The notes under the pieces are model-generated. The model had not been told where the DNA came from and made no database searches. It saw nothing but the letters and a program-made list of their open reading frames with translations. From assembly GCA_018821245.1 (NCBI GenBank), contig JAHJMO010000026.1, forward strand, positions 15,518-79,517: DNA of 64,000 bases, read 5' to 3'. Of the stretch, positions 8,772-37,307 are shown piece by piece. Each line of letters begins with the position of its first letter. The first letter of the stretch is position 1. Origin of the DNA: Patescibacteria group bacterium (GTDB lineage: Bacteria; Patescibacteriota; Microgenomatia; UBA10105; UBA927). A program made the position numbers and the translations under genes.

Positions 8772-9404
8772 ATGGATGATTTTACTGAGGAGAATCTAAA
8801 AAATAACTGTCCACATTGCGATCCCAACTCATTCGCACTGAAGTATCCGCTGGAAAAAACCAGTAAATTTTGGATTGTTTGTGATGTCCATCCTTTAACT
8901 GAAGGACATATTTTAATCATTCCAAAGAAGCACTTGAGTTGTATTGGTGAATACCAAGAAAATGATTATTCAGAATTTCTTTCTTTGTTTAATAAGTATT
9001 CAGACTTTATAAGAAAAACATATGGTTATGTTAGTACATTTGAACATGGCAAGATTGGTCAGACTGTATTTCATTCTCATGTCCACCTGTTACCATTTAA
9101 AGGTTCTTCCATAGAAATAATTCCAGAAGGATTAAATAATCTTGCTTTATTTAGTGATTTTTCTCATTTAAAAGATGTATTTCGTAAAGAAGGAAAATAT
9201 TTATATTTTTCAATTGGTGATAAAAAATGGGTTGTTAATACAGGTTTAGGATCTCCAAGATTCTTCAGGGACAGATTTGCAAAAGCCATTGGAAATCCCT
9301 TGCGGGGTGATTGGAAAAAGATGAGCCAAAATAGCAAATTAATGATGGAAGCCGAGCGAGATATTCAAGATCTTCGTGACAAATGGAATTCCTTTAAGAA
9401 GTGA
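8772..9404 (+). CDS. HIT (histidine triad) family nucleotide hydrolase/transferase with C-terminal extension
   Basis: GHILIIPKKH plus histidine triad HSHVHLLPF; about 100 aa C-terminal extension; very AT-rich (about 33% GC). Confidence 0.7.
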   Translation: MDDFTEENLKNNCPHCDPNSFALKYPLEKTSKFWIVCDVHPLTEGHILIIPKKHLSCIGEYQENDYSEFLSLFNKYSDFIRKTYGYVSTFEHGKIGQTVFHSHVHLLPFKGSSIEIIPEGLNNLALFSDFSHLKDVFRKEGKYLYFSIGDKKWVVNTGLGSPRFFRDRFAKAIGNPLRGDWKKMSQNSKLMMEAERDIQDLRDKWNSFKK

Positions 9405-17497: not shown

Positions 17498-18268
17498 ATG
17501 ACGATAGCAGATCCACGTATTCAGAAACGCAGCCAACCCAAAGAAACTGTTATTTTTGCCGCAGGACAGCTTCAGGGACAGCGAGATCTTCAGGAGGACC
17601 GGTTCCTCAATTTCAGCGATGAGTGTTTCGTCATAGCAGATGGGGTAGGAGGGATGCCGCATGGGGAGGTTGCGGCAACTATCGCCTGTGAGACAGCCAT
17701 CTGGGGGTATAAGCATATTCGGCAACGGCGTTGCTATTGGTTGAACAAAAAGCAGTTTATGCATAGGATTTTCCGTTCGACAAATTTGGCTGTCTGGCAG
17801 AAACACCGGGAAACAGGATTTGGAGACGGACTAGCCTCTACTCTTCTTGTGCTGATTGTCGGCGCAGAGACTCTGTGGATAGGTTCAGCGGGCGACAGCA
17901 ATGCATTTTTCTTTCGTAACGGCATGGTTCAGAAGCTCACTCATGAGGATGTTGATGCAGTTGGAAATCTTACAAAGGCACTGGGATTGAAGCGTTTGGG
18001 GCTCATGCCGCAGTTTATCAGGGAAGATTTTTTTGTACATGATGTCATTCTTTTGGCAACCGATGGAGTTTCTGATTATGTTACGACAAACGATTTGATG
18101 ATGATTATGTCCTCGGCAGGTTCAACGGCGGAAACTGTCAAAAGCGCAGTTGACTCTCTCATTCAGATTGCCGAGGAAAACGGTAGCAAAGACAATATGA
18201 CGGCTTGTTTGATCAAGCGGGCGTCCGTTGTGGGGCAATCTGTATTATCTTCGGATTCCATGATATAG
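17498..18268 (+). CDS. PP2C-family Ser/Thr protein phosphatase
   Basis: ADGVGG, GDSNAFF and ATDGVSD metal-binding Asp motifs of PPM phosphatases; divergent from the PBP pair. Confidence 0.8.
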   Translation: MTIADPRIQKRSQPKETVIFAAGQLQGQRDLQEDRFLNFSDECFVIADGVGGMPHGEVAATIACETAIWGYKHIRQRRCYWLNKKQFMHRIFRSTNLAVWQKHRETGFGDGLASTLLVLIVGAETLWIGSAGDSNAFFFRNGMVQKLTHEDVDAVGNLTKALGLKRLGLMPQFIREDFFVHDVILLATDGVSDYVTTNDLMMIMSSAGSTAETVKSAVDSLIQIAEENGSKDNMTACLIKRASVVGQSVLSSDSMI

Positions 18269-18307: not shown

Positions 18308-19792
18308 ATGCCTGCCGAATTTTTTAGCGAAATAAGCAATCACGCAACCCCTCCGACCTACAGGTTTTTTGACGGAGCGGGCTGGAAGGAAAGCACAAGT
18401 GCCGCGACGAGCGACGTTACCTCGCCGATACAAGGGGAAATTCTCGGACGGCTTCAGGTGGTGACTCACCAGGAGATAGACCAAGCGCTGGCAAACGCTC
18501 AAAAAGCACAGCCACAGTGGGAATCTACGCCATTACACCAGCGCGTCAAAATCATGCACCTATCGGCTGATTGGATTCGCCATTTTCGCGGATATCTCGC
18601 TTCGCTTCTTATTAAAGAAATTGGCAAGACAGATCTGGAAGCACAAGGAGAAATCGACAGGACGGCAGATCTTATTGACTATTTTGCCGATGAGGTTCAG
18701 TCGATCAGGGGGGAAACGTTGGATAGCGATAATTTTCCCGGTTTCGACAAAGGACGTTTGGCGATGATTGAGCGCGTGGCTTATGGAGTGGTCGTCGCTA
18801 TCGCACCATTTAACTATCCGGTTAACCTGGCGGCAAGTAAAATTGTTCCAGCACTTCTTATGGGTAACAGCGTCGTGTTTAAGCCGCCGACACAAGGAGG
18901 GATCAGCGGAGTGCATTTGACGCGGTTGTTTGAAAAAGCCGGGGTACCGCAGGGCGTGCTTTCTTGTATTACCGGCGGCGGAGGAGACATTGGGGACTAT
19001 CTCGTGGGTCACAGTGGTGTTGATATGTTGGCGTTTACGGGCGGCAGCGATACCGGAGTCCATATCGCAAAACAAGCAGGTATGGTACCGATGCTTTTTG
19101 AATGCGGAGGAAATAATCCGGCGGTTGTCTTACCTGATGCGGATCTGGCATTAGCCGCAAGAGAGATAGTTAGAGGTGCTTTCAGTTATTCCGGCCAACG
19201 TTGTACGGCAATTAAATATGTGCTAACTACAGAAAGTATTTTGAATCAATTATTGCCGCAGGTATTAAATAATATAAAAGAAATGGTGCGGATGGGCGAT
19301 CCTAGGAGTCCTGAAACTAAATTAGTCGGGCCGGTAATCTCTCCTAGTGCCGCGGAAAAAATTTTGCAGGCGATAAGCGAGTCAGTCGGTTTGGGTGCAA
19401 AAATAGAAATAGGAGGTAAGCGAAAAGACGCGCTTGTTGAACCGACAGTCTTAACACATGTTAAATCTCAGATGCCGGTAGTGGCGCATGAAATTTTCGG
19501 ACCGCTGGTTTCTTTTATTCAAGTCGCAAGTTTTGATGAGGCTTCCGAGATTATCAATAGCTCCAATTACGGCTTACAAGCCAGTATATTTACTCGCGAT
19601 GAGGGGACCGGTATTAATTTTGCCAAAAATCTCAAAGTCGGTTCGGTGCAGATAAACGGTTCGCCCCAGCGGGGACCCGATCATTTTCCGTTTTTAGGCG
19701 TCAAGCATTCCGGCGTGGGCGTCCAGGGTGTGCGGTATTCGTTGGAAGCCATGAGCAGGTTGAAGCCGGTGGTCCTCAATAAGCCGCAGTGA
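18308..19792 (+). CDS. Aldehyde dehydrogenase (non-phosphorylating GAPDH/GapN-like)
   Basis: ALDH motifs: FTGGSDTG, FECGGNNP (catalytic Glu region), GQRCTA (catalytic Cys); about 494 aa. Confidence 0.85.
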   Translation: MPAEFFSEISNHATPPTYRFFDGAGWKESTSAATSDVTSPIQGEILGRLQVVTHQEIDQALANAQKAQPQWESTPLHQRVKIMHLSADWIRHFRGYLASLLIKEIGKTDLEAQGEIDRTADLIDYFADEVQSIRGETLDSDNFPGFDKGRLAMIERVAYGVVVAIAPFNYPVNLAASKIVPALLMGNSVVFKPPTQGGISGVHLTRLFEKAGVPQGVLSCITGGGGDIGDYLVGHSGVDMLAFTGGSDTGVHIAKQAGMVPMLFECGGNNPAVVLPDADLALAAREIVRGAFSYSGQRCTAIKYVLTTESILNQLLPQVLNNIKEMVRMGDPRSPETKLVGPVISPSAAEKILQAISESVGLGAKIEIGGKRKDALVEPTVLTHVKSQMPVVAHEIFGPLVSFIQVASFDEASEIINSSNYGLQASIFTRDEGTGINFAKNLKVGSVQINGSPQRGPDHFPFLGVKHSGVGVQGVRYSLEAMSRLKPVVLNKPQ

Positions 19793-19800
19793 GTGTTATG

Positions 19801-20469
19801 TTACGCTTTAAAAATATCGGATTGTAGTTTTTTCGCTTCTTCCAAAAAGAATTTTTCCATTTCATGTCTGTCAAAAGGCACAATCATTCTCGGGATGTCT
19901 TTCAAAACTACGACTTGAGTAAACGTTTGTCCAAGCTGAATCGGATCGATGTGCCAATCGATTTTCGCTTTAGCCAGCGAGATCATCTTTTTTAAGTCAA
20001 AATCTTTGTCTTTCATGATAAAAAAGAGATCAACAAAGTCTCTGTCTCTGGCGTGGGTATAGATCGTATGGATTTTATTTGCCGTGATATCTTCCAGGCT
20101 GTCTATTTCCAACCCTTTCCATGTGCCGCCTTTCTGTATGCGGGGAAAAGGATAATAATTGAAATCAACTTTCAACTGGACATGAGGAAGTTGAAAGACA
20201 TATGAATACAGTCCTAAATACCGTTTAAATGCAATTTCTTTTGCGCCTAATTTTTTTCCGGCAAGCGCGACAAATTTATTGATGCTTGCTATATGAATTT
20301 CCTGATGTTCCGAAAAAAGATCGATATCTTCGGATTCTCTATGGTGGAGATAAAATTCCGAAAGGACCGTACCGCCCGTCCAATAAAACCGCTTTCGGAT
20401 GTACGGTTCGTTTACGACAAGTTCCAAAAATTTCTTATGATGTCTTTTGAGGATGGAGTTTTTCCCCAT
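19801..20469 (-). CDS. AbiEii/AbiGii-like nucleotidyltransferase toxin (type IV TA/abortive-infection family)
   Basis: FYWTGGTVLSEFYLHHRESEDIDLFS matches the DUF1814/AbiEii hallmark (GGTAL ... RxSxDxD); AT-rich (about 36% GC) unlike neighbouring guaA. Confidence 0.55.
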   Translation of the reverse strand: MGKNSILKRHHKKFLELVVNEPYIRKRFYWTGGTVLSEFYLHHRESEDIDLFSEHQEIHIASINKFVALAGKKLGAKEIAFKRYLGLYSYVFQLPHVQLKVDFNYYPFPRIQKGGTWKGLEIDSLEDITANKIHTIYTHARDRDFVDLFFIMKDKDFDLKKMISLAKAKIDWHIDPIQLGQTFTQVVVLKDIPRMIVPFDRHEMEKFFLEEAKKLQSDIFKA

Positions 20470-20663
20470 AATACATACGTTAAGTACGCTCGTGCATTTG
20501 GATCAAGCCGATCTTTTATTTTCGGCCAGGCTTTAATGAGCTTCTGTTTTTCTAATTTTTCATGCCCCAGACCATAATTTATAAGCTGAGTCATTTTCCA
20601 CAACTCGTATTCTTTGGGGTTTTCTTTCTTAAACTTTTTTTCATCTACCGACCAGTTATACAT
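20412..20663 (-). CDS. Small ORF overlapping the AbiEii-like gene start (possible partner/antitoxin fragment)
   Basis: 83-aa ORF with ATG at 20663 overlaps the downstream toxin-like gene by 58 nt in another frame. Too short for a canonical AbiEi antitoxin, so it may be a remnant. Confidence 0.3.
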   Translation of the reverse strand: MYNWSVDEKKFKKENPKEYELWKMTQLINYGLGHEKLEKQKLIKAWPKIKDRLDPNARAYLTYVLWGKTPSSKDIIRNFWNLS

Positions 20664-20723
20664 AGCTCTATTGTACCACAAATGACCATCTGTAGCCCTG
20701 ATTTTTTAGGGGGTTTTGTATTG

Positions 20724-22241
20724 CTATTCCCACTCCATGGTGGCAGGAGGTTTGGTGGTAATGTCGTAGACAACGCGGGATACTCCAGGGACTTCGTTGA
20801 CAATGCGCGAAGAAATTTTTTGAAGAAGACTATCAGGGAGCTTGGCCCAATCGGCAGTCATCCGATCCCGAGAGACTACTGCCCGTACCGCTATCACTTC
20901 TCCGAGTCCCCGGCCATCGCCTTTAACTGCGGTTGACTGTATACCGGTAGCCACGGCGAAAGAGTGAAGAAGCTTCTCATACCAGCCCGTCATGTTTACT
21001 TCTTCAACGATGATGGCATCAGCTAAACAAACACGTACAAGTCGTTCCTTGGTAACCTCTCCGATGATGCGGATGGCATAGCCGGGGCCGGGGTGCGGCT
21101 GTTGAGAGATGAATTGGCGCGGGATTCTGAGTCTTTTGGCTAACGAGCGGACTTGATCAGTGTATAATTCCCTGATCGGTTCAACCAGAATAAGCTTCAT
21201 TCTTTTGGGCAGGCCGCCGATATTGTGGTGGGATTTGATATTGGCGGCATATCTGGTTCCCTTGCTTTCTATAACATCAGAATAGATAGTTCCCTGGACC
21301 AGAAACTCGACATGTGTGTGGTTTTTAAGTTCTTTCTCAAACAGTTCAATGTATAATTTGCCAATCGCTTTTCGTTTTTCCTCCGGATCGGTTTTGCCCT
21401 TGAGGACTTTCAAAAATTCCTTTTCTTTAGAAAGAACAATCGGGTTGATGCCGAGCTTATTTCGGAAGTAGGAAACGACAGTCTGTGTGGTGCCTTTGCG
21501 CATGAGCCCGTTTTCGATATGAACAGGGATTAGTTGTTTTCCGATGGCGCGGGCAACGAGTGTTGCCGATACAGTTGAATCCAGTCCGCCGGAAACGGCT
21601 GCTATGGCTTTTTTGCTGCCGACGGTTTTTTTGATGGTTTTGATCATTGCTTCAATATCAACAGACTGTTGTTTGGCAGAAAGTCCACAGATATCCAGAA
21701 AATTTTTGAAGATTAAAGCGCCATGTTCTGTATGTTCGACTTCCGGATGGAACTGCACACAGTAAATCCTCCGTTTTTCATGAGTCATTGCCGCGGCCGC
21801 AACAGTTTCCGTATTGCCGACAAACGAAAACCCCAATGGGGGAGAGGCAACAACGTCGCCATGGCTCATCCAGACACGGGAACGAGTGGAGAGGGAGGAG
21901 AATAAGCGGGTATTACCATCGATGACGAGGGCTGCCGGCCCGAACTCCTTGGTTTTACCCGGTTTGACTTTTCCTCCCAAAAGATGAGCAGTTAGCTGTT
22001 GCCCGTAGCATATGCCTAATATCGGTATTCCGAGGGTATAGATCGTTTTACTGACTGTTGGGGCATGCCTTTCGTAAACGCTGGCCGGGCCGCCGGAGAA
22101 AATGATTCCGGCAGGTTTTACTGCAGTAATGACTTCTAAAGCGACGTCTGGTTCAATTATTTTGACCTGAATTCCAAAGTCCGCTACTCTCCGGGAAATA
22201 AGATGTGTAGTCTGCGATCCGAAGTCAACAACGATGATCAT
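20724..22241 (-). CDS. guaA: GMP synthase (glutamine-hydrolysing)
   Basis: N-terminal class I GATase (GICYGQQ catalytic Cys), ATP-PPase SGGLDS motif, C-terminal dimerisation domain ending PPATMEWE. Confidence 0.95.
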   Translation of the reverse strand: MIIVVDFGSQTTHLISRRVADFGIQVKIIEPDVALEVITAVKPAGIIFSGGPASVYERHAPTVSKTIYTLGIPILGICYGQQLTAHLLGGKVKPGKTKEFGPAALVIDGNTRLFSSLSTRSRVWMSHGDVVASPPLGFSFVGNTETVAAAAMTHEKRRIYCVQFHPEVEHTEHGALIFKNFLDICGLSAKQQSVDIEAMIKTIKKTVGSKKAIAAVSGGLDSTVSATLVARAIGKQLIPVHIENGLMRKGTTQTVVSYFRNKLGINPIVLSKEKEFLKVLKGKTDPEEKRKAIGKLYIELFEKELKNHTHVEFLVQGTIYSDVIESKGTRYAANIKSHHNIGGLPKRMKLILVEPIRELYTDQVRSLAKRLRIPRQFISQQPHPGPGYAIRIIGEVTKERLVRVCLADAIIVEEVNMTGWYEKLLHSFAVATGIQSTAVKGDGRGLGEVIAVRAVVSRDRMTADWAKLPDSLLQKISSRIVNEVPGVSRVVYDITTKPPATMEWE

Positions 22242-22252
22242 ACTTACGGCGT

Positions 22253-22525
22253 TTATGTGTTTGCTCCCGTGAGGGAGAATAAGTAGACGGTTTTTTGGTC
22301 CCGCGTGTTGGAGCCGAAATGTTTTCCAGCCGTAATTTTTTCTACGACAGTCTGTATTCCCCTGTCATCTTCATCTACTATACTGTGAAGCAAAATATGC
22401 AGTCCGTCGTTTCCGTTTGCCCAAACCGTAATTGTTTCGCCGGGTGACAGTGCTTTTGTAACAGGAAGACTATCCGGAAAAATATTAATTTGTTCGGTAA
22501 CCCTCTCCAGCATTTGTACGCTCAT
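22253..22525 (-). CDS. Hypothetical small protein (possibly cupin-like)
   Basis: 90 aa, beta-rich composition; no firm motif. Confidence 0.3.
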   Translation of the reverse strand: MSVQMLERVTEQINIFPDSLPVTKALSPGETITVWANGNDGLHILLHSIVDEDDRGIQTVVEKITAGKHFGSNTRDQKTVYLFSLTGANT

Positions 22526-37234: not shown

Positions 37235-37306
37235 GCGCCCGTAGCTCAGCGGAAGAGCGCGTGTCTTATAAACACGAGGTGCTTGGATCGTCACCAAGCG
37301 GGCGCA
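37235..37306 (+). tRNA. tRNA-Ile (anticodon UAU, reads AUA)
   Basis: Cloverleaf: acceptor GCGCCCG/CGGGCGC (7 bp), D-arm GCTC/GAGC, anticodon stem CGTGT/ACACG with loop CTTATAA (anticodon TAT), 5-nt variable loop, T-arm CTTGG/CCAAG, discriminator A, no encoded CCA. T-loop ATCGTCA is non-canonical (A54/T58), so a tRNAscan check is needed. Confidence 0.6.
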
Positions 37307-37307
37307 C

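What the first reader, a model, noticed from the sequence alone, without database searches (positions are those of the whole stretch)
19801..20700. AT-rich islet with an AbiEii-like nucleotidyltransferase toxin and an overlapping short upstream ORF, wedged beside guaA
The 222-aa protein carries the AbiEii/DUF1814 hallmark GGTVL...RESEDIDLF. GC content drops to about 36% for exactly this about 900-bp stretch. The usual partner (AbiEi, wHTH antitoxin of 200-300 aa) is missing. Instead, an 83-aa ORF overlaps the toxin start by 58 nt in another frame. The module is either decayed or has a non-canonical short partner.
Basis: partly seen in the sequence, partly recalled or inferred. Interest (0 to 1): 0.5.

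Follow-up and report, generated by a model that had tools for sequence, protein, structure and literature searches.

The report
Toxin gene with novel small partner
This is an intact two-gene toxin-antitoxin-like module from a tiny uncultured (Patescibacteria) bacterium, in which a known kind of tRNA-modifying toxin is always paired with a previously unnamed 83-residue helical protein whose tail is encoded in the same DNA as the start of the toxin.

Summary
ORF 19801-20469(-), 222 aa, is a significant PF08843/AbiEii (DUF1814) nucleotidyltransferase with all catalytic motifs intact. An 83-aa ORF (20412-20663, -) overlaps its start by 58 nt. The roughly 880-bp module has 37.9% GC against 46-48% in the flanks.

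The module is not decayed, and the small ORF is not a gene fragment. It belongs to a conserved family of 63-98 aa with no Pfam, NCBIfam, PADLOC or PHROG model and no fold relative. It is named only 'hypothetical protein' and occurs almost only in Microgenomates-type Patescibacteria.

Pairing looks obligate. In a toxin-first search, 73 of 73 loci have the small gene directly upstream. In a small-gene-first search, 64 of 74 have a full-length toxin, and the rest are toxin remnants.

The toxin ATG lies inside codons 65-66 (xxA-TGG) of the small ORF. Synonymous sites of the toxin's first 15 codons are constrained only where the small ORF overlaps them, so both frames are under selection.

Best reading: a MenAT1-like toxin-antitoxin pair with a new, unrelated short antitoxin. 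No toxicity, neutralisation or binding was tested. I rate it a new variant of a known kind, of moderate interest.

The parts
20670..20678 (-). Extended -10 promoter element TGgTACAAT, exactly 6 nt before the small-ORF ATG. It predicts a leaderless transcript starting at or next to 20663.
   Evidence: The sequence is. The same TGnTAtAAT-N6-ATG layout appears in most of 76 homologous loci and in at least 40 of 72 metagenome loci. No transcript data exist. The simple sigma-70 scan, which requires a -35 hexamer, did not call it.
20412..20663 (-). Small ORF of 83 aa (stop included): the putative antitoxin or partner. The predicted four-helix core spans residues 4-66 and is followed by a coil tail at 67-83.
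   Evidence: 360 homologs, with invariant P16, W22, Q26-L32, E35-L37, W46, D54 and W66. AF2 gives pLDDT 83. There is no family hit and no fold relative.
20553..20588 (-). Codons 26-37 of the small ORF: the invariant QLINYGL..EKL stretch at the end of helix 2 and the loop before helix 3. This is the most conserved part of the protein and a candidate toxin-contact element (inferred).
   Evidence: Invariant columns come, and secondary structure.
20412..20469 (-). 58-nt dual-coding overlap. It encodes small-protein residues L65 to S83 (including W66 and the F79-W80 motif) plus the stop, and, in the -1 frame, toxin residues M1-V19.
   Evidence: The toxin ATG lies inside xxA-TGG in 72 of 74 loci. 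Synonymous codon entropy at conserved toxin residues is 0.35 in the overlap and 0.86 elsewhere, p=4e-5. The constraint appears only in long-tail loci: L15 is xTG in 25/29 against 13/41, and L7 is CTC in 22/29 against 4/41.
19801..20469 (-). DUF1814/AbiEii-family nucleotidyltransferase ORF of 222 aa (stop included): the putative toxin.
   Evidence: PF08843 at E=1.6e-14 and PADLOC AbiEii models. AF2 pLDDT is 91.5. Foldseek finds JHP933 at E=1.7e-8 and MenT1 at E=4e-4. The identical protein is named 'nucleotidyl transferase AbiEii/AbiGii toxin family protein' in NCBI.
20371..20376 (-). Toxin motif I, G32-G33 (hG[GS]).
   Evidence: Invariant. The motif definition comes from PMC3985639.
20320..20340 (-). 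Toxin motif II, R44-E-S46-E-D48-I-D50. It holds the catalytic aspartates and the Ser at the position of the known phosphoacceptors (MenT3 S78, MenT1 T39, AbiEii T65).
   Evidence: R44, S46, D48 and D50 are invariant. The positional equivalence R-x-[ST]-x-D-h-D is inferred from residue numbers in PMC11375011 and the AbiEii preprint, not from a structural superposition.
20164..20166 (-). Toxin D102 (KVDF): presumed third active-site carboxylate on the neighbouring beta-strand.
   Evidence: Invariant. The assigned role is inferred from general knowledge of pol-beta-type nucleotidyltransferases.
20029..20076 (-). Toxin motifs III and IV: K132...R141 and R143-D144-x-x-D147 (+DxxD).
   Evidence: K132, R141, R143, D144 and D147 are invariant.

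Best explanation
The region is an intact, self-contained two-gene toxin-antitoxin-like module of a Microgenomates-type patescibacterium. It sits in a variable gap between guaA and an aldehyde dehydrogenase gene.

The downstream gene encodes a catalytically competent DUF1814 (AbiEii/MenT-type) nucleotidyltransferase. By analogy with MenT1, MenT3 and AbiEii, it would add nucleotides to tRNA 3' ends and stop translation (inferred).

The upstream gene encodes an 83-residue basic four-helix protein of a previously unnamed family. It is the toxin's obligate partner and most likely its antitoxin. It would neutralise either by binding across the active-site face, as MenA1 does, or by triggering auto-phosphorylation of the invariant Ser46. 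This is inferred from known MenA/AbiEi biology; no binding or phosphorylation was tested.

The pair has its own extended -10 promoter placed so that the small ORF is probably leaderless. The toxin starts at an ATG embedded in codons 65-66 of the small ORF, in the -1 frame. As a result, the last 17 residues of the small protein (with a conserved Phe-Trp) and the first 19 residues of the toxin are read from the same DNA, and both readings are under selection.

Shown: the gene pair, its conservation, the obligate linkage, the intact motifs, the dual-coding constraint and the mobility signatures. Inferred: toxicity, the target, neutralisation, and the role of the tail.
For: **Toxin identity.** PF08843 is above threshold. 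Motifs I-IV plus D102 and S46 are invariant across 32 and 37 homologs. The confident AF2 model is closest to JHP933 and MenT1.

**The partner is a real gene.** It has 360 homologs of similar length, strong conservation and a confident helical model.

**Linkage.**
- 64 of 74 small-gene-first loci carry a full-length toxin starting inside the small ORF.
- 73 of 73 toxin-first loci carry the small gene, down to 39% toxin identity.
- The two genes co-diverge: r=0.65, Mantel 0/999 over 139 pairs.

**Decay is asymmetric, as expected for toxin-antitoxin pairs.** About ten loci keep the small ORF with a truncated or deleted toxin. No toxin lacks the small gene.

**Mobility signatures.**
- Module GC is below flank GC in 64 of 68 loci.
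- Genomic contexts differ: none of 80 loci has guaA or the aldehyde dehydrogenase gene nearby.
- Some genomes carry several copies.
- In a close relative, the same guaA-aldehyde dehydrogenase gap also holds a ParE/Phd pair.

**Precedent.** MenT1 is neutralised by the 68-aa, non-DNA-binding MenA1. Unrelated antitoxins all induce auto-phosphorylation at the equivalent Ser/Thr.

**Dual coding.**
Against: - Nothing functional was tested: toxicity, neutralisation, complex formation and phosphorylation are all unmeasured.
- The small protein is basic (pI about 9.5). That would also fit binding to nucleic acid.
- It has no detectable similarity to MenA1, AbiEi or any solved fold, so its mode of action cannot be transferred by homology.
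- Inter-protein covariation was uninformative.
- The leaderless start rests on promoter geometry only. Similar -10-to-ATG geometry occurs at other genes in the window, so it is a trait of the host rather than of the module.
Confidence: 0.7

Rival explanations
1. The small protein is not an antitoxin. Instead it is a nucleic-acid-binding accessory factor: either a transcriptional autoregulator of the operon, or an RNA/tRNA-binding specificity or activating subunit of the nucleotidyltransferase.
For: - It is basic, with a family mean pI of 9.46.
- An HMM of the family weakly matches nine repeats of a helical-repeat protein, P0260, at E=1e-6.
- Obligate linkage and co-divergence fit any tight functional partnership, not only neutralisation.
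Against: - The profile-profile comparison with the P0260 repeat gives only 12% probability.
- The upstream-small-gene layout and the asymmetric decay (partner kept, toxin lost) are the classic toxin-antitoxin pattern.
- The short-antitoxin precedent is MenA1.
Confidence: 0.17
2. The two ORFs are expressed as one fusion protein by programmed -1 ribosomal frameshifting on the G_GGA_AAA heptamer at 20459-20465, which sits exactly where the toxin frame opens.
For: - The window has a perfect X_XXY_YYZ heptamer in the small-ORF frame (tgG GGA AAA).
- The toxin is in the -1 frame.
- Many homologs share GGGGAAAA at this position.
Against: - The heptamer is not conserved. WDK, WQK, WEK, WNK, WPK and WGT variants all lack a slippery site.
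- By contrast, the ATG is conserved in 72 of 74 loci.
- In short-tail relatives the overlap is only 4-28 nt.
- The one apparent natural fusion, P0216, is a gene-calling artefact: an in-frame TGA plus an A7 homopolymer shift.
- The shared GK in both frames explains the heptamer where it does occur.
Confidence: 0.04
3. The module is a decayed AbiE system that lost its AbiEi antitoxin, and the 83-aa ORF is a chance or remnant ORF.
For: No AbiEi-like gene is adjacent. The islet is AT-rich.
Against: - The small ORF is a conserved full-length family.
- It is linked to the toxin in 73 of 73 loci.
- All toxin motifs are intact.
- Both frames of the overlap are under selection.
Confidence: 0.02

Closest known systems
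MenAT1 (Rv0078B/Rv0078A) of Mycobacterium tuberculosis: the DUF1814 toxin MenT1 with the 68-aa antitoxin MenA1
   Same: - A short DUF1814 nucleotidyltransferase of about 200-220 aa, preceded by a very small non-AbiEi, non-wHTH protein.
- The toxin model matches the MenT1 structure 8AN4 (Foldseek E=4e-4, TM 0.46-0.53).
- A Ser/Thr lies two residues before the first catalytic Asp.
   Different: - The small protein shows no sequence similarity to MenA1: a profile search of all PDB chains at E up to 10 found only a hemocyanin.
- It is predicted as a four-helix unit plus tail, whereas MenA1 is a two-helix V.
- The host phylum differs.
- The long dual-coding overlap is not described for menAT1 in the sections of the MenAT1 papers I read.
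AbiE (AbiEi/AbiEii) of Streptococcus agalactiae and lactococcal plasmids; MenAT3 and MenAT4
   Same: - The same toxin superfamily (PF08843) with motifs I-IV.
- A bicistronic layout with the partner upstream.
- A conserved phosphoacceptor position.
   Different: - The defining antitoxin, a COG5340 protein of about 200-300 aa with a wHTH and a C-terminal domain, is absent.
- The toxin is about 70 aa shorter and is not reached by sequence search from the solved MenT3, MenT4 or AbiEii chains.
- A rule that requires both AbiEi and AbiEii to call an AbiE system would not call this one. This is an inference from the PADLOC result, where the small protein hit nothing.
JHP933 of Helicobacter pylori J99 (PDB 4O8S, 4OK0)
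   Same: It is the closest solved relative of the toxin, both by sequence (E=4.6e-6 with a profile) and by fold (E=1.7e-8, TM 0.60). It is likewise a roughly 230-aa DUF1814 enzyme encoded in a variable genome region.
   Different: Identity is only 18-21%. No partner protein is reported for JHP933 in what I read. I did not examine its neighbourhood.

Membership tests
DUF1814 / AbiEii nucleotidyltransferase superfamily (PF08843) | Significant match to the family model above the curated threshold | tested here: met
   54.9 bits against a cutoff of 22.5, E=1.6e-14. Twenty PADLOC AbiEii models also hit.
DUF1814 / AbiEii nucleotidyltransferase superfamily (PF08843) | Motifs I (hG[GS]), II (R..DhD), III (K...R) and IV (+DxxD), as defined by Dy et al. 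2014 | tested here: met
   G32-G33, R44/D48/D50, K132...R141 and R143-D144-x-x-D147 are all invariant in homologs.
DUF1814 / AbiEii nucleotidyltransferase superfamily (PF08843) | Bi-lobed fold with a nucleotidyltransferase domain and a helical bundle, like solved members | tested here: met
   The AF2 model has pLDDT 91.5. Foldseek finds JHP933 at E=1.7e-8 and MenT1 at E=4e-4.
DUF1814 / AbiEii nucleotidyltransferase superfamily (PF08843) | Growth inhibition through nucleotide transfer to tRNA 3' ends | not testable with these tools
   This needs expression and tRNA sequencing. It is known for MenT1, MenT3 and MenT4.
AbiE system (AbiEi + AbiEii) | [quoted passage not shown] | tested here: not met
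   The upstream gene is 83 aa, with no Pfam, NCBIfam or PADLOC hit. Its model is all-helical with no wing. The neighbours are guaA and an aldehyde dehydrogenase gene.
AbiE system (AbiEi + AbiEii) | A bicistronic operon with the partner gene first | tested here: met
   The operon status is inferred from the overlap and the single promoter, not from transcripts.
MenAT1-type pair (MenA1 + MenT1) | Partner homologous to MenA1 | tested here: not met
MenAT1-type pair (MenA1 + MenT1) | A short DUF1814 toxin with a Ser/Thr phosphoacceptor two residues before the first catalytic Asp | tested here: met
   S46-x-D48 is invariant, compared with MenT1 T39/D41 and MenT3 S78. The equivalence rests on motif position only.
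Toxin-antitoxin module (generic, type II or type VII) | Tight genetic linkage of a small upstream gene with a toxin-family gene, patchy and multi-copy distribution, and variable context | tested here: met
   Linkage is 73/73 and 64/74. Some genomes hold several copies. Contexts differ, and module GC is below flank GC in 64 of 68 loci.
Toxin-antitoxin module (generic, type II or type VII) | The partner neutralises the toxin by binding and/or induced phosphorylation | not testable with these tools
   No experiment was possible.

The most novel reading that the evidence does not exclude
The small protein founds a fourth, structurally new antitoxin family for DUF1814 toxins. In the subfamily present here, its C-terminal Phe-Trp tail arose by overprinting the toxin's own N-terminal coding sequence and now acts as a second, selected toxin-contact or regulatory element. 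The antitoxin tail and the toxin N-terminus would then be mutationally locked together. In addition, ribosomes finishing the antitoxin would run across the toxin's start site and so set the toxin-to-antitoxin ratio.
Probability: 0.3. Interest if true: 0.65.

Novelty: new variant of a known kind. Interest (0 to 1): 0.5.

Why it matters
DUF1814 toxins (AbiEii, MenT) are among the most abundant toxin and phage-defence enzymes. Their antitoxins are strikingly diverse, yet appear to converge on one mechanism: induced auto-phosphorylation of the toxin.

An unrelated small partner restricted to Patescibacteria would be another independent solution for testing that idea. It would also add a defence or addiction module to organisms whose reduced genomes are thought to carry few such systems.

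The small protein hit no PADLOC model, and the viral-contig scan found no homologs. A rule that requires AbiEi would therefore report these loci as orphan toxins at best (inference). A family model for the small protein would correct that.

The overlap is also a clean bacterial example of two reading frames under simultaneous selection. It comes with a built-in natural control, because short-tail relatives lack the constraint.

Tried and rejected
- **Programmed -1 frameshift fusion.** The heptamer is perfect in the window but not conserved, so I rejected it as a general mechanism.
- **Natural fusion protein P0216 (282 aa).** On reading the DNA, it is two genes joined by reading TGA as sense, plus an A7 homopolymer shift.
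- **In-frame fusions P0134 and P0185.** In these the small N-terminus is joined to the middle of the toxin and motifs I and II are lacking. From their protein sequences they look like deletion remnants; I did not read their DNA.
- **Pfam scan of all 43 family members at E up to 10.** It returned only scattered chance hits.
- **Inter-protein mutual information on 139 pairs.** The top pairs were dominated by rare variants at otherwise invariant positions, so it was not interpretable.
- **Rfam, at E up to 1 over 19000-21500.** No hit.
- **Boundary repeats.** I found no target-site duplication or terminal inverted repeats. The terminator-like and promoter-like hits of the simple scan were at chance level.
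- **Viral contigs.** No homologs.
- **Leaderless start as a peculiarity of the module.** Similar -10-to-ATG geometry and rare Shine-Dalgarno motifs occur at other genes in the window. It is a host trait.

Full report
**What is in the sequence.**

On the minus strand, a 222-aa ORF (19801-20469) is preceded by an ORF that the mechanical list gives as 89 aa from a TTG at 20681. Homologs all begin at the position of the ATG at 20663 (MxNWS...), so the 83-aa reading is correct.

The two ORFs share 20412-20469, which is 58 nt, and the toxin is in the -1 frame relative to the small ORF. GC is 0.379 over 19801-20681, against 0.475 and 0.458 in the 4-kb flanks.

guaA (20724-22241, -) ends 60 nt upstream of the small ORF. 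A convergent aldehyde dehydrogenase gene (18308-19792, +) ends 8 nt from the toxin stop.

The window matches public Patescibacteria assemblies such as GCA_018829345.1. There the toxin is already named 'nucleotidyl transferase AbiEii/AbiGii toxin family protein', and the small protein is 'hypothetical protein'.

**The toxin.**

PF08843 (AbiEii) matches at E=1.6e-14, 54.9 bits against a cutoff of 22.5, and 20 PADLOC AbiEii models also match.

In alignments of 32 and 37 homologs, every position that defines the family is invariant (definitions from Dy et al. 2014):
- motif I: G32-G33
- motif II: R44, D48, D50
- the beta-strand aspartate: D102
- motif III: K132...R141
- motif IV: R143-D144-x-x-D147

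S46 is also invariant. It lies two residues before the first catalytic Asp, in the pattern R-x-[ST]-x-D-h-D. That is where MenT3 S78, MenT1 T39 and AbiEii T65 are auto-phosphorylated. The equivalence is by motif position, not by superposition.

The AF2 model is confident (pLDDT 91.5). Its nearest solved structures are H. pylori JHP933 (E=1.7e-8, TM 0.60) and then MenT1 (E=4e-4), followed by poly(A) polymerases and CCA-adding enzymes. By sequence, only JHP933 is reached.

The protein is therefore a bona fide, apparently active member of the DUF1814 superfamily, of the short type.

**The small protein.**

It has no hit in Pfam, NCBIfam, PADLOC or PHROGs, whether scanned alone or as 43 family members.

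It does have 360 homologs in the 5.8-billion-protein collection, nearly all 80-87 aa, from Gottesman-, Beckwith-, Curtiss-, Woese-, Davies- and related 'bacteria'. A profile search of 1.84 billion cluster representatives finds only 179 at E of 1e-3 or below, so the family is small and lineage-restricted.

Conservation is strong. P16, W22, Q26-L-I-N-Y-G-L32, E35-K-L37, W46, D54 and W66 are invariant.

The protein is basic, with a family mean pI of 9.46.

**Linkage.**

Starting from the small protein, a scan of one genome per species returned 80 loci. In 64 of the 74 loci with a recognisable small ORF, a full-length toxin ORF begins inside the small ORF.

The remainder carry truncated or deleted toxins next to an intact small ORF. 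Examples are L001, L007, L022 and L063, and L003 and L072, where the toxin is gone.

Starting from the toxin, a metagenome scan returned 80 loci at 39-75% identity. All 73 with enough upstream sequence carry the small gene immediately upstream.

Pairwise identities of the non-overlapping parts of the two proteins correlate across 139 pairs (r=0.65, and 0 of 999 Mantel permutations reach that value).

The pair is thus inherited as a unit and is never seen as a toxin alone. Partner-only remnants do exist, which is the asymmetry expected when the downstream gene is harmful by itself.

**Mobility.**

Module GC is below flank GC in 64 of 68 loci. None of the 80 loci has guaA or the aldehyde dehydrogenase gene nearby. 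Several genomes hold two or three copies.

In a relative with an 83% identical toxin, the module again follows guaA. However, a ParE/Phd pair and two unknown genes are additionally inserted before the aldehyde dehydrogenase gene. The guaA-aldehyde dehydrogenase gap is therefore a variable islet.

I found no boundary repeats, integrase or tRNA at the site, and no homologs on viral contigs.

**The overlap is selected, not accidental.**

The toxin ATG is formed by the last base of codon 65 (TTA, CTA, ATA or GTA) and the first two bases of the invariant Trp66 codon. This holds in 72 of 74 loci.

Across the wider family there are two architectures:
- short small proteins of 63-73 aa that overlap the toxin by 4-34 nt;
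- long-tail proteins of 80-98 aa that overlap by 46-91 nt. The window belongs to this group.

In the long-tail group the small-ORF tail keeps a Phe-Trp pair (F79 and W80, each 97% conserved). For that to happen, toxin codons F14 and L15 must be TTT and xTG.
- F14 is TTT in 60 of 60 loci, and L15 is xTG in 60 of 64. At other invariant leucines, xTG accounts for only 16-39%.
- Overall, relative synonymous codon entropy at conserved toxin residues is 0.35 inside the overlap and 0.86 outside (Mann-Whitney p=4e-5).

The control comes from an independent set of loci:
- L15 is xTG in 25 of 29 long-tail loci but only 13 of 41 short-tail loci.
- L7 is CTC in 22 of 29 long-tail loci but only 4 of 41 short-tail loci.

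The constraint exists only where the small ORF actually overlaps those codons. That argues for dual coding rather than an RNA-structure or initiation-region effect.

**Expression signals.**

An extended -10 box (TGgTACAAT, 20678-20670) lies exactly 6 nt before the small-ORF ATG. The same geometry recurs in most homologous loci, which predicts a leaderless transcript.

This is probably a property of the host rather than of the module. Several other genes in the window show a -10 box 5-8 nt from their ATG, and only 5 of 42 large ORFs have a Shine-Dalgarno match of 4 nt or more. The toxin ATG also has no Shine-Dalgarno motif.

No Rfam family matches.

**Mechanism and comparison.**

The published picture for this superfamily is as follows. 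MenT and AbiEii toxins add nucleotides to tRNA 3' ends. Their antitoxins belong to at least three unrelated families. One of them, MenA1, is a 68-aa protein without a DNA-binding domain. MenA1, MenA3 and AbiEi all neutralise by inducing auto-phosphorylation of the active-site Ser/Thr.

The module here fits that picture, with a fourth, unrelated partner. It works like MenAT1: a short toxin with a short non-wHTH partner. It is not a member of either defined pair, because the AbiEi criterion and the MenA1-homology criterion were both tested and not met.

I put 0.7 on the toxin-antitoxin reading. I put 0.17 on the partner being a nucleic-acid-binding regulator or specificity factor instead; its basic charge and a weak, unconfirmed resemblance to helical-hairpin RNA-binding repeats keep that option open. 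I put 0.04 on a frameshift fusion and 0.02 on decay.

**Verdict.**

The toxin is a known kind and is already annotated. What is new is the unnamed partner family, its obligate pairing, and the selected dual-coding tail.

I rate it a new variant of a known kind, with interest 0.5.

Noticed in passing
window 17498-18268 (+): A PP2C-type Ser/Thr phosphatase gene (PF13672) lies two genes from the module. A 2026 preprint reports that the sole PP2C-type phosphatase of S. agalactiae dephosphorylates AbiEii. The proximity here may well be coincidence.
   Followed up: no
L081 5672-8108 (relative of the window): In a relative, the same guaA-aldehyde dehydrogenase gap also holds a ParE/PhD-YefM pair and two genes of 241 and 379 aa with no Pfam hit. 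The gap therefore behaves as a small hotspot for toxin-antitoxin or defence genes.
   Followed up: partly
window 20459-20465 (-): A perfect -1 slippery heptamer, G_GGA_AAA, sits in the small-ORF frame just after the toxin ATG. It is not conserved in homologs.
   Followed up: yes
window 37235-37307 (+): The only tRNA gene in the 64-kb window is a tRNA-Ile with anticodon TAT. From my own knowledge, that is an uncommon way for bacteria to read AUA.
   Followed up: no
window, starts of ORFs at 8772, 60704, 7113, 11749(-), 56017(-) and 18308: Many genes in the window have a TATAAT-like box a few bases before the ATG, and Shine-Dalgarno motifs are rare (5 of 42 large ORFs). This suggests widespread leaderless or SD-independent initiation in this organism.
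   Followed up: partly
P0260 (701 aa): A protein with nine repeats of about 51 aa (NLLWAxAKLVDNGLELEKT.KLKEAV.ALLP.VK) weakly resembles residues 20-50 of the small protein. HMMER gives E=1e-6, but hhalign gives only 12% probability. Pfam sees only DUF6746 and DUF1601.
   Followed up: partly
L088 335-1183: A public gene call of 282 aa fuses the small protein and the toxin, because TGA was read as sense. The DNA also has an A7 run that shifts the toxin frame. This distant module still has the TGcTATACT-N6-ATG promoter layout.
   Followed up: yes
L059 2615-4869: Two complete small-gene/toxin modules lie back to back in divergent orientation on one contig.
   Followed up: no
L005, L008-L010, L017 and other loci: Many loci carrying this Microgenomates-type module come from records titled 'uncultured Gammaproteobacteria bacterium'. 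These titles are probably placeholder or wrong taxon labels, but I did not check.
   Followed up: no
window 22253-22525 (-): A conserved 86-90-aa ORF between guaA and the phosphoribosyltransferase gene has no Pfam hit in any of the four public copies.
   Followed up: no
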